A stretch of 34,179 nucleotides of DNA, filler included, from Thermoplasmatota archaeon (GCA_041623215.1; 18 parts of 18 records of this genome joined end to end with filler, not necessarily neighbours in it); one strand, 5' to 3'. Shown: positions 24,001-27,000, counted from the whole stretch's first letter. Program-made: the numbers.

Positions 24001-27000
24001 ACAAGGGCATCTGGCGCGGCGTAGAAAATCACTGGAACAACGTCCTGGACCGGCTGCCACCCCACAGCCCAACCAAATGGGNNNNNNNNNNNNNNNNNNN
24101 NNNNNNNNNNNNNNNNNNNNNNNNNTTAATTAATTAANNNNNNNNNNNNNNNNNNNNNNNNNNNNNNNNNNNNNNNNNNNNACGCGCAAGGCTTCAAGAT
24201 TGGTCGCGTCCGTCGTTGGTGCATGGCGTTGGAGCAACTGGTCCGCCCTGTTTGGCCACCCCTGCGTCACGTCGAGCGTGGCTGGGCGGCGCTGTCGGCT
24301 GAACAACAGGCGCATGTGGAATGTCGGCTGGCCAAGGTGCTGGAAGGCCACGTCTGGCCTGACCACATGGACCGCGAGGCGCTAGCCACGTTCTTTTCGT
24401 TCTTGGCCCAAGTGGAAACCATCGCCATTGAGATTCCCCTTCGCTTCTTGCCCGCGGCGTCACCGGAACAGGCCGAGCTTCTTCGGGAGCAATTGGTGGA
24501 CGAGGTGTTTCACAGCGTCGCCTTCGCCAGACTGGCGCACGAGCTTACCGACGGGGCCTCGCCGCCAATTGTGGCCAGTGCCGAGCGGCTGCTCGACCGA
24601 ATCAGGGCCACGGAGGACCTAGCCACGGGGGCGACGCTACTCAACCTCGTCGCGGAGGGCTGGATTGAGACGCTCTTTGAACACGCTGCGTCGTGGGGCA
24701 TTGCCGACCCGTTGTTTGCTGCGGTGCTCGAAGACGAGTCGAGGCATGTGTGCGAGGCGTTAGAGCACGCTGCTGGCATGGATGCCGCTCGCGCCCGCGA
24801 CGATGTGTGGGCTTTGGAGGCAGGGCTGCTGGAAGTCCAGCAGGAGCCAGCAGTCAGTCTGGCGATGCTGCATATCGCCGGACCAAGCGCGTACGGTCGC
24901 CTCGTGGATGACCTCTGGTCGCACCATCGGCGTCACTTGGCCGCAGTGGGCTTAGAGCCCAGTCCCGCCTGGCAGGAGATGGAGCGGGTGGCCGGAGATG
25001 CGGCACGTGCCCGGGACGCGACCGATGTGGCCGGTGCCGCCCAGGGGGATGGCTCACTGCCGGTCGGCTCGTTGCCGAAGCGAATCGAAGATTCGCCATG
25101 GCGGATGGCCGCCCGGAAGGTCTGGGACGTACCGCGCAATCCAACCATGCAAGGAGGATTCGATGTCCCTGTGGGTCACGTCCCGAAGCGCCTGTTGACC
25201 CCCGTGCTAGTCGCCGCGCTGGGACGCGCCTGGCACGCGAATCCCCGCTTCAATCGCATTGTCCACCAGGATGGAGTCTGGGAACTTCCTCGCGCCAACG
25301 TGGGTGTCCGCGTACTCGTTGGCGACGGCGAACTGGCAACGGTCGTCATTACCGACGCTCACCGCCGCAGCGTGCGCGACATTTCATACATGATTCGTGA
25401 CGGCGTGGGTCAATTAGAGGCGCTGTGGCACCGACGCCCCCAACCCTCCTCGACGGGCCAAGCGGCCGATGCGCCGCCTGCCTTCGACCCGGCATTGGGG
25501 AAGTGGCTGCCGCCGGAGGCCGCGCAGTTCAGTGTCGCCCTATCCAATCCTGGCAAGTTCGGTCTCGTGTCCGGCGCGGGTGCCTTCAGTGGTCATTTGT
25601 CGCCGGCCACCGACATCAGCGTCGGCGAGCGACGACGCCTGCCAAAATGGCGGGGCCTGGCGTATCTGCCTGCCTGGCACGTCCACCTAGGGTGTCTACA
25701 GGATCACCGTGTCTTCGACGGTCGCGAGGCAGGCCAAGCCATGACTGCCCTGCGACAACAATTGTCGCGCCGCAATGTGAAGGCCATCTTGCAGACGCCT
25801 GATTCGCTTGAAGTGCCGCGAGACCCGCCCGTCTATGACGATGCCTGGTTTGCCGCGCTCCCCCCNNNNNNNNNNNNNNNNNNNNNNNNNNNNNNNNNNN
25901 NNNNNNNNNTTAATTAATTAANNNNNNNNNNNNNNNNNNNNNNNNNNNNNNNNNNNNNNNNNNNNGGCACGCGGCGACCACCGCGCGTTGGCGATTTGGC
26001 TACTGGTTCGCGGGGGTGCCTTGGCGTCGCAGCGGATTGAGTTGCTGACGGACGGCGCTGCCAGCCACGCATGGGGCGCCATGGCGCGTCACTTCCACTT
26101 GTGGGCAATTGTGGCATTACTGGTGTTTGTATTCCTCTACGTGGCACCACGGACCCGCGCTCGACAAATCTGGACGATTGGGGTGGCTTTGCTGGCCCCC
26201 GCCGCGTCACTTTTCCTGATGAGCAATGAATGCCTCGACGTATGTGCAACAAATTCCCAAACCAGATTGGGCCCAATCTTTCTAGCCATCGAATCATATC
26301 CATTCGTGGCCGGCGCCGCAGGCCTGTTGTTGGTGGTAGCGGCAAGCCAACAAAAACCCGCTTTGGCCCGCGGGACGATAGTTGCGGCGTCGGGCCTTTT
26401 GCTGAACGCAGTCTTTGACGGGACTATTTTCCTGGCAGATGCGTTGTTAGTGGGTCCTGGCTGGCTTGCCGCACAAACCCCGGATATCGGCATTGCGTGG
26501 GCCGCGACAGTTGTTCGGGTACTCGCATTGACGGTTGGCATAGTAGGTGTGCTGTACATGGCTGCGGCACCCACCGCCACCAGCCCACAGAAAGACGCAA
26601 GCAACGCGTGGCGCTTGGCACTATCGGCGCTTGCAGCGGCAGGATCGGGGGCAATCGTGGCGTTCGAGTTCGGCGCCGTCGGGGTTGCGGCCGCCGGCTT
26701 CTGGAGAATGGTTGTACCAATTCTCATCTCCTACGCACTCATCCGGCACTGCATTCTCGATGTGGACCTGCGCCTCCGCTGGACCGTGCAACGGGGAACT
26801 TGGACCGCGATTCTGGTTGCTGTATTCTTCGTGGTCAGCGAAGCGGCGCAGGAGTTGTTCTCCGGCTGGTCCGGCAGTCCCTATCTTGGCATCGTCGCAG
26901 CCGGCAGCCTTCTCTTCGCCATCCAACCCCTGGAGCGAGTCGTCCAGCGCGTTGGAAATGCAACAGTGCCCCCCAGCAGGACCGAAGCGGTGCTGGCCCA

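What a model noticed while it worked through the whole genome (the two positions that open the first line are those of the whole stretch)
24184..25863. Diiron ferritin-like oxidase fused to an E2-type acyltransferase
g01936 joins an N-terminal diiron four-helix domain (E78, D106-E-x-x-H, E158, D184-E-x-x-H) to a 2-oxoacid-dehydrogenase E2 acyltransferase domain with intact DHRxxDG, and ends (on C11) in a membrane anchor. It is predicted to be a membrane-bound, self-assembling enzyme that takes an acyl group from acyl-CoA and oxidises it at an aldehyde-deformylating-oxygenase-like centre, making hydrocarbons or modified lipids. If true it is an undescribed enzyme architecture and a candidate one-protein route from acyl-CoA to alka(e)nes.
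Evidence so far: Model pLDDT 86, pTM 0.85. VIA: residues 57-266 match cyanobacterial aldehyde-deformylating oxygenase best (Z 21.2, rmsd 2.8, 202 aa); 315-538 match E2 cores (Z 19.3). Metal ligands and D507-H508-R509, D512-G513 invariant in 34 of 34 aligned. 61 homologs, 57 covering over 90% of the query, named ones Thermoplasmatota or one Halobacteriales. 14 of 38 order genomes, next to sec61-beta in 10 of 13 loci.
(Added by a program. Inside this text positions count along the whole contig: they may not be those of the stretch shown here. "Call 12" and the like, gene names such as g00115 and contig names such as C1 are that model's own, and its searches are not shown. The text may have been shortened before it was handed on; [...] marks where a part breaks off. 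The agent that wrote the report below was given it as the finding of a first reader that could run no searches.)

Follow-up and report, generated by a model that had tools for sequence, protein, structure and literature searches.

The report
Diiron oxygenase fused to acyltransferase
An archaeal gene joins a two-iron centre to an acyl-transferring domain; the same fusion occurs in Legionella relatives and right behind phage tail genes, and it likely oxidises and acylates a long lipid chain rather than making alkanes, though no reaction has been tested.

Summary
The fusion is real. All six diiron ligands and the E2 catalytic His and Ser are intact in 64 of 64 aligned archaeal-type proteins. My model reproduces the fold matches: ADO Z 20.5, E2 core Z 19.3. 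The gene runs across three contigs that overlap exactly by 141 bases. There it sits in a conserved three-gene cassette, behind recognised tail genes in 8 of 13, with a coiled-coil partner that carries a cysteine in 10 of 11. Two Legionellales side branches sit beside isoprenoid synthases; one lost the acyltransferase His (10 of 10) but mostly kept the iron ligands (7 of 10). The alkane route is unlikely: it needs an aldehyde, and no acyl-ACP reductase was found in 38 order genomes. Best reading (0.45): O2-dependent oxidation of a lipid chain, then acylation. Substrate unknown. Ten paper searches found no description.

The parts
24223..25863 (+). Fusion gene, part on contig C218 (frame open from 24184; runs off the contig and ends 68 residues later on C11; 615 aa from this ATG)
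24352..24981 (+). Ferritin-like diiron domain (residues 57-266), ADO-like eight-helix fold in the model
   Evidence: ligands E78 (24415), E107 (24502), H110 (24511), E158 (24655), E185 (24736), H188 (24745) invariant in 64 of 64
24925..24927 (+). H248, an extra conserved His outside the ligand set (64 of 64 archaeal-type, 81 of 81 phage-type; variable in Legionellales side branches)
25120..25794 (+). E2-type (PF00198) acyltransferase domain, residues 313-537, no lipoyl or E3-binding domain
25543..25545 (+). S454, position of the E2 catalytic Ser/Thr
   Evidence: 64 of 64; aligned to the 3mae motif
25702..25722 (+). D507-H508-R509-x-x-D512-G513 catalytic motif
   Evidence: 64 of 64
24182..24322 (.). 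141-base exact overlap with contig C115 (upstream: sec61-beta, HAD hydrolase, folD, rps12, rps7)
25725..25865 (.). 141-base exact overlap with contig C11, which carries the hydrophobic tail, the stop, and a convergent radical SAM gene

Best explanation
The gene encodes a two-domain protein with a full diiron ligand set and an intact E2-type acyltransferase site, predicted to work as a membrane-tethered trimer that likely oxidises (most likely hydroxylates) a long hydrocarbon chain, probably an isoprenoid, with O2 and then likely acylates the product from acyl-CoA. Shown: both residue sets, the two folds (as models), the family's range and neighbours. Inferred: iron as the metal, O2 use, a long-chain substrate (from the ADO-type fold), an isoprenoid substrate (from Legionellales side branches only), the order oxidise-then-acylate, the trimer, the membrane tether, and electrons from a separately encoded small ferredoxin or a quinol.
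For: Both sites intact together in 64 of 64 archaeal-type, 26 of 26 main Legionella-type and 67 of 81 phage-type proteins, the last at about 30% identity; the three groups align end to end (hhalign E 7e-69 and 4e-60). Nearest solved fold in two separate models is ADO, whose tunnel takes long hydrophobic chains (PMC9743570 passages). A squalene-synthase-like gene (PF00494) lies directly behind the fusion gene on the same strand in 12 of the 117 Legionellales genomes that have it (searches compared by place). In another branch a polyprenyl synthase lies just upstream (9 full-length and one 92-aa piece in 10 loci) and is a third, extra copy in 4 of 4 genomes tested against 2 in a main-branch genome. 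That branch lost the E2 His in 10 of 10 but kept all six iron ligands in 7 of 10, so the iron step seems not to need acyl transfer first. The host has a haem-copper oxidase, five AMP-binding ligases and a separate ordinary E2.
Against: No isoprenoid or lipid gene lies near the archaeal gene: its neighbours are housekeeping genes; PF00494 is absent from 0 of 31 family genomes and the own genome, and polyprenyl synthase number does not follow the fusion. The 52 main-branch Legionella loci show no shared prenyl synthase among families in 4 or more loci (read by eye). Five phage records hold neither synthase, and the phage cassette points to a protein partner instead. The 20 Legionellales loci were hand-picked from 117 by length and score. 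No [2Fe-2S] ferredoxin or FNR-type reductase was found in the 88%-complete genome; only 4Fe-4S motifs. No coordinates were available to test whether the two sites share a channel.
Confidence: 0.45

Rival explanations
1. Protein lipidation: the E2 domain moves an acyl chain from acyl-CoA to a cysteine of a partner protein (the same thiol-to-thiol chemistry as E2), and the diiron centre modifies the chain.
For: In 13 phage-type contigs a coiled-coil gene is the top leave-one-out hit beside the enzyme in 12 (E 3e-16 to 0.011), and a Cys sits at the start of its helical part in 10 of the 11 with a visible N-terminus, as the only Cys in 8 of those 10. 12 of 64 archaeal-type proteins end in a Cys-bearing amphipathic tail.
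Against: No homolog of either phage partner in the window's genome and no Cys in its tail. The Cys falls in one alignment column in only 6 of 8 partners aligned and is absent in L086. It does not explain the isoprenoid-synthase neighbours or the His-less branch. The Cys could instead form disulfides.
Confidence: 0.2
2. The diiron centre desaturates or hydroxylates an acyl (or isoprenoyl) chain while it is still on CoA, the E2 domain serving to bind the CoA ester and hand the product on.
For: Related folds act on CoA or ACP thioesters: PaaAC Z 15.6, BoxB 12.8, stearoyl-ACP desaturase 12.2; Atlas feature hits include PaaA/C 0.93 and acyl-ACP desaturase 0.91. A His-less E2 domain could still bind CoA, which would fit the branch.
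Against: These folds score well below ADO. No ACP or fatty-acid synthesis gene recurs near any branch; one phage has a separate desaturase nearby.
Confidence: 0.15
3. One reading: a one-protein route from acyl-CoA to alka(e)nes. It would need new chemistry, such as peroxo attack on the thioester followed by loss of CO2.
For: ADO is the best fold match in both models (Z 20.5 and 19.4). PDB titles show deformylating activity across other ferritin-like proteins (6d9f, 5uxg). First ligand spacing E-X28-E-X2-H fits ADO's motif as given in PMC9743570.
Against: ADO needs an aldehyde; no AAR over cut-off in 0 of 38 genomes, only weak LuxC and PF07993 hits of at most 37 bits in the own genome. Second spacing is X26, not X28-29. 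Sequence hits favour AurF and R2. Alkane making does not explain a phage tail cassette or the isoprenoid synthases.
Confidence: 0.08
4. Small-molecule tailoring of the AurF plus chloramphenicol-acetyltransferase type: N-oxidation of an amine and acetylation.
For: AurF is the commonest weak Pfam hit for the iron domain (11 of 64, best E 2.7e-4; 2 of 60; Atlas 0.93); CAT matches the second domain at Z 14.8-15.1.
Against: All hits are far below AurF's cut-off. The third His that AurF has four residues before the last bridging Glu (recalled) is V or I in all 64 and hydrophobic in all 81 phage-type proteins. No biosynthetic cluster surrounds the gene.
Confidence: 0.07

Closest known systems
Cyanobacterial aldehyde-deformylating oxygenase (PF11266; PDB 5ux2, 5uwz)
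   Same: Nearest solved fold (Z 20.5, rmsd 2.9, 202 aligned, 19% identity); two E...ExxH ligand sets.
   Different: Fused to an acyltransferase; no AAR partner; no Pfam ADO hit among members; second ligand spacing X26; membrane-type tail.
E2 catalytic core of 2-oxoacid dehydrogenase complexes (PF00198; 7b9k, 3mae, 1eaa)
   Same: Fold (Z 19.3), DHRxxDG and catalytic Ser.
   Different: No lipoyl or E1/E3-binding domain; not in a dehydrogenase operon; the genome has a separate ordinary E2; C-terminus extended.
Stand-alone lipoyl-less E2-type proteins of 250-350 aa (P0161-P0211)
   Same: Closest sequence relatives of the C-terminal domain, sharing the Trp-rich first helix.
   Different: No iron domain; function unnamed; their gene context was not seen (no plasmid hit).
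Other class II diiron oxygenases: sMMO alpha, phenol hydroxylase, R2lox, PaaAC, AurF, acyl-ACP desaturase
   Same: Ferritin-like four-helix core with 2-His/4-carboxylate ligands; Z 19.1, 17.8, 16.4, 15.6; weak AurF sequence hits.
   Different: None is fused to an E2 core in what I searched; no beta/gamma subunits or reductase genes nearby.
Legionella 'putative CoA-dependent acyltransferase' database entries
   Same: Full-length homologs with both sites intact.
   Different: The database name ignores the iron domain; extra C-terminal helical part instead of the Gly-rich tail; no paper found.

Membership tests
Ferritin-like class II diiron enzymes | E...ExxH...E...ExxH ligand set on a four-helix bundle | tested here: met
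   64 of 64; fold
Ferritin-like class II diiron enzymes | Binds two iron ions and activates O2 | not testable with these tools
   needs purified protein
ADO (PF11266) | ADO-type eight-helix fold | tested here: met
   best match in two models, Z 20.5 and 19.4; lead over sMMO alpha 1.4 Z in the first
ADO (PF11266) | Sequence match to the family profile | tested here: not met
   no hit for P0001 at E<=1; not among families listed for 64 or 60 members at E<=0.5 (25 of 28 families shown in 77)
ADO (PF11266) | Two EX28-29EX2H motifs (PMC9743570) | tested here: inconclusive
   first is X28, second X26 (positions)
ADO (PF11266) | Partner acyl-ACP reductase supplying the aldehyde | tested here: not met
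   0 of 38 order genomes over cut-off; own genome 88% complete
ADO (PF11266) | Converts fatty aldehyde to alkane and formate | not testable with these tools
   assay needed
E2-type acyltransferase domain (PF00198) | Profile over cut-off, DHRxxDG and catalytic Ser/Thr | tested here: met
   35.2 bits against 23; 64 of 64
E2 subunit of a 2-oxoacid dehydrogenase complex | Lipoyl and E1/E3-binding domains | tested here: not met
   only PF00198 in Pfam; NCBIfam E2 models 14-18 bits against cut-offs of 445-722
E2 subunit of a 2-oxoacid dehydrogenase complex | Assembles into 24- or 60-mer cores | not tested
   only inferred against from the C-terminus
AurF-type N-oxygenases (PF11583) | Profile over cut-off | tested here: not met
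   11 of 64 weak hits, best E 2.7e-4; 13.3 bits against 29.6 for P0012
AurF-type N-oxygenases (PF11583) | Third His ligand four residues before the last bridging Glu (recalled) | tested here: not met
   V 62, I 2 of 64; I/V/L/F in 81 of 81
AurF-type N-oxygenases (PF11583) | Fold closer to AurF than to other diiron enzymes | tested here: inconclusive
   searches list at most 50 entries

The most novel reading that the evidence does not exclude
This is an undescribed family of protein-lipidating oxygenases shared by archaea, Legionellales and phages: the E2 domain S-acylates a cysteine and the diiron centre remodels the chain, and phages carry it as a portable three-gene tail cassette to put a lipid on one of their own tail-module proteins.
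Probability: 0.2. Interest if true: 0.88.

Novelty: new variant of a known kind. Interest (0 to 1): 0.67.

Why it matters
Two well-known folds are joined in an architecture that my ten paper searches did not find, and both active sites are kept across archaea, over half of sampled Legionellales genomes and unrelated phages. Databases label it an E2 subunit or hypothetical protein and miss the iron domain. If the best reading holds, it is a new lipid-tailoring step (oxidise and acylate in one chain), testable at once with a compact 424-residue phage version (model pLDDT 96). The phage tail cassette is the most surprising part: no PHROGs family covers any of its three genes and no cultured phage record matched. 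If it lipidates a phage protein, that would be a new kind of phage protein modification.

Tried and rejected
Complex prediction of a phage enzyme (two copies) with its coiled-coil partner gave no answer; it is neither for nor against binding. AurF and CmlI were not among the 50 VIA rows of either model, which does not exclude them. Foldseek on PDB listed only E2 cores; on viral models nothing at E<=0.001. Isoprenoid co-occurrence in the archaeal order: no signal; in five phage records none. Wider flanks of 14 archaeal loci showed no shared lipid or reductase gene. DNA pattern scans: 5 of 15 and 5 of 17 loci held the enzyme, the rest were chance; the partner motif scan returned only the two contigs it was built from (circular), and the small-gene scan only itself, so I could not test whether the partners occur without the enzyme. 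No match in cultured phages or plasmids or for P0090 in viral contigs. The IQ-TREE run did not finish; FastTree on 82 chosen rows was used, unrooted, so no direction of transfer is claimed. Rejected: assembly artefact (full-length homologs on single contigs; same neighbours on both sides); ordinary E2 subunit; a link to Legionella long-chain oxo and dioic fatty acids (PMC7867332, passages: those acids are said to be general in the genus, while the gene is in 117 of 203 genomes and also in archaea; not tested further). Paper searches; none listed a paper on this fusion (listings and abstract starts only). Supplementary tables of Legionella genome papers were not searched and may name the gene.

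Full report
What is there. The window is a string of 18 small contigs with N spacers, and the finding covers contig C218. Its + frame is open for 560 residues. C218 overlaps C115 and C11 by exactly 141 bases each and nothing else in the assembly. The C11 part adds 68 residues and a stop, 615 residues from the ATG at 24223. Relatives carry the whole gene on one contig with the same neighbours on both sides, so the join is sound though not checked with reads.

Anatomy. An AlphaFold model (pLDDT 89.6, pTM 0.88) has a helical N-domain and an alpha/beta C-domain. VIA puts residues 57-266 nearest cyanobacterial ADO (Z 20.5, rmsd 2.9, 202 aligned), then sMMO alpha 19.1, a second ADO 19.1, 6d9f 18.0, phenol hydroxylase 17.8, R2lox 16.4; residues 313-537 match E2 cores (Z 19.3) and CAT (14.8). 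All six ligands, the DHRxxDG motif and S454 are invariant in 64 of 64 aligned proteins (4 short hits of the 67 were left out). There is no lipoyl domain and the genome has a separate ordinary E2. The tail is Gly/Ala-rich with hydropathy 1.68, a borderline membrane segment.

The family is wider than archaea. A profile search of 1.8 billion representatives gave 75 proteins at E<=1e-30, most matching across both domains, with both motifs kept in most of the 88 aligned. They fall into archaeal-type, Legionellales-type and a compact, very diverse 400-490-residue type; the last two are each one side of a branch at support 100 in a FastTree of 82 chosen rows, the archaeal type is two groups. Profiles align end to end. 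In archaea the gene is in 14 of 38 order genomes, all in one family, and full-length in 4 more genomes of two other families in a 401-genome phylum sample; names of homologs point to Thermoplasmatota. It sits in a housekeeping stretch with sec61-beta (12 of 14), folD, rps12 and rps7 and a radical SAM gene, with no reductase or lipid gene.

Legionellales. The fusion is in 117 of 203 scored genomes (3 not scored) and is named 'putative CoA-dependent acyltransferase' or E2 subunit in databases. The 52 main-branch loci have housekeeping neighbours. Two earlier AI notes of this scan claimed isoprenoid neighbours in side branches; I tested that. A squalene-synthase-like gene lies directly behind the fusion on the same strand in 12 genomes (both sites intact in 6 of 6 read). 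In another branch a polyprenyl synthase lies just upstream (10 of 20 hand-picked loci, one only a 92-aa piece) and is an extra third copy in 4 of 4 genomes tested. There the E2 His is lost in 10 of 10 while all six iron ligands stay in 7 of 10. The notes hold for these branches, not for the whole family.

Phages. I saw the compact type in context on 13 distinct contigs, 8 from IMG/VR and 5 metagenomic. A PHROGs tail gene lies just upstream in 8 of 13; L021 has a terminase and head-tail adaptor nearby; L020 and L023 have long upstream ORFs matching only unknown-function families, and L095 and L098 are short fragments. Leave-one-out profiles find a 150-165-residue beta-rich gene as top hit in 11 of 13 and a coiled-coil gene in 12 of 13; the latter has a Cys at the start of its helical part in 10 of 11 with a visible N-terminus. 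The cassette occurs in contigs of 33-69% GC, from 39 kb to 328 kb phages. The phage enzyme folds as a tight two-domain unit (pLDDT 96.1, pTM 0.92), again nearest ADO (Z 19.4, next non-ADO iron fold 16.4). Most compact-type proteins were not seen in context, so calling the whole type phage-borne is an inference; one lies in a bacterial MAG. Neither partner has a homolog in the window's genome.

How it most likely works. ADO's tunnel takes long hydrophobic chains, and ADO needs an aldehyde made by NADPH-dependent AAR and electrons from ferredoxin (PMC9743570, passages read). An E2 domain only moves acyl groups (established knowledge). AAR is not found in the order. The His-less branch suggests the iron step stands without acyl transfer, and the synthase neighbours name an isoprenoid chain as substrate in two branches. 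I therefore commit to oxidation of a long chain, likely an isoprenoid at the membrane, followed by acylation from acyl-CoA (0.45). For the archaeal protein itself this rests on relatives, not on its own neighbours. The phage cassette keeps a second reading alive, S-acylation of a protein cysteine (0.2). Oxidation of a CoA-bound chain (0.15), the alkane route (0.08) and AurF/CAT-type chemistry (0.07) follow. The host is aerobic by its haem-copper oxidase; the electron donor is unknown.

Novelty. It is a member of the ferritin-like diiron superfamily and of the E2 fold by the tests I could run, but not an ADO, not an E2 subunit and not an AurF. Ten searches of the open library (listings and abstract starts) showed no paper on the fusion; most subscription journals and all supplements were outside them. 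Mak et al. 2020 was seen only as a reference entry. Interest 0.67.

Noticed in passing
window, whole: The window is 18 contigs (C206-C223) joined by N runs with a stop-bearing linker; ORFs that cross a spacer (e.g. 23328-24137, or the stop at 25917) are artefacts.
   Followed up: yes
L020:7324-11344, L021:8441-10538, L023:9995-12339, L097:2410-4584, L130:4823-7005 and 8 more contigs: Three-gene phage cassette (small beta-rich gene, Cys-bearing coiled coil, diiron-E2 enzyme) behind tail genes; no PHROGs family for any of the three. Deserves its own study.
   Followed up: partly
L112:7840-8874, L111:7768-8733 and others: Legionellales side branches pair the fusion with a squalene-synthase-like gene or an extra polyprenyl synthase; G604 carries two fusion copies, one of them synthase-linked.
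   Followed up: partly
window 24925-24927: H248 is invariant in archaeal and phage types though not a canonical ligand; N154, W160 and Q103 are also kept across all three types. Possible second-shell or electron-path residues.
   Followed up: no
P0052-P0065: 12 of 64 archaeal-type proteins end in a short Cys- and Trp-rich amphipathic tail instead of the Gly-rich one; 14 of 64 carry DUF5763 repeats after the tail.
   Followed up: no
L035:6523-6792, L104:5738-5995: Small membrane genes with weak holin_4 similarity (below cut-off) flank the Legionella gene in 14 of 52 loci, often on both sides.
   Followed up: no
L002:2369-3277; F7: folD lies near the gene both in archaea (7 loci) and in Legionella (18 loci); probably chance.
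   Followed up: no
L141:6980-8674; L075; L076: Homologs split by a stop or frameshifts in one archaeal and two Legionella genomes.
   Followed up: no
L023:13428-14204: A T4-like phage with the cassette also has a membrane fatty-acid desaturase (PF00487) about 2 kb downstream.
   Followed up: no
P0161-P0211: A large set of stand-alone, lipoyl-less E2-type proteins (250-350 aa) is the nearest kin of the C-terminal domain; their neighbours might reveal the acyl acceptor.
   Followed up: partly
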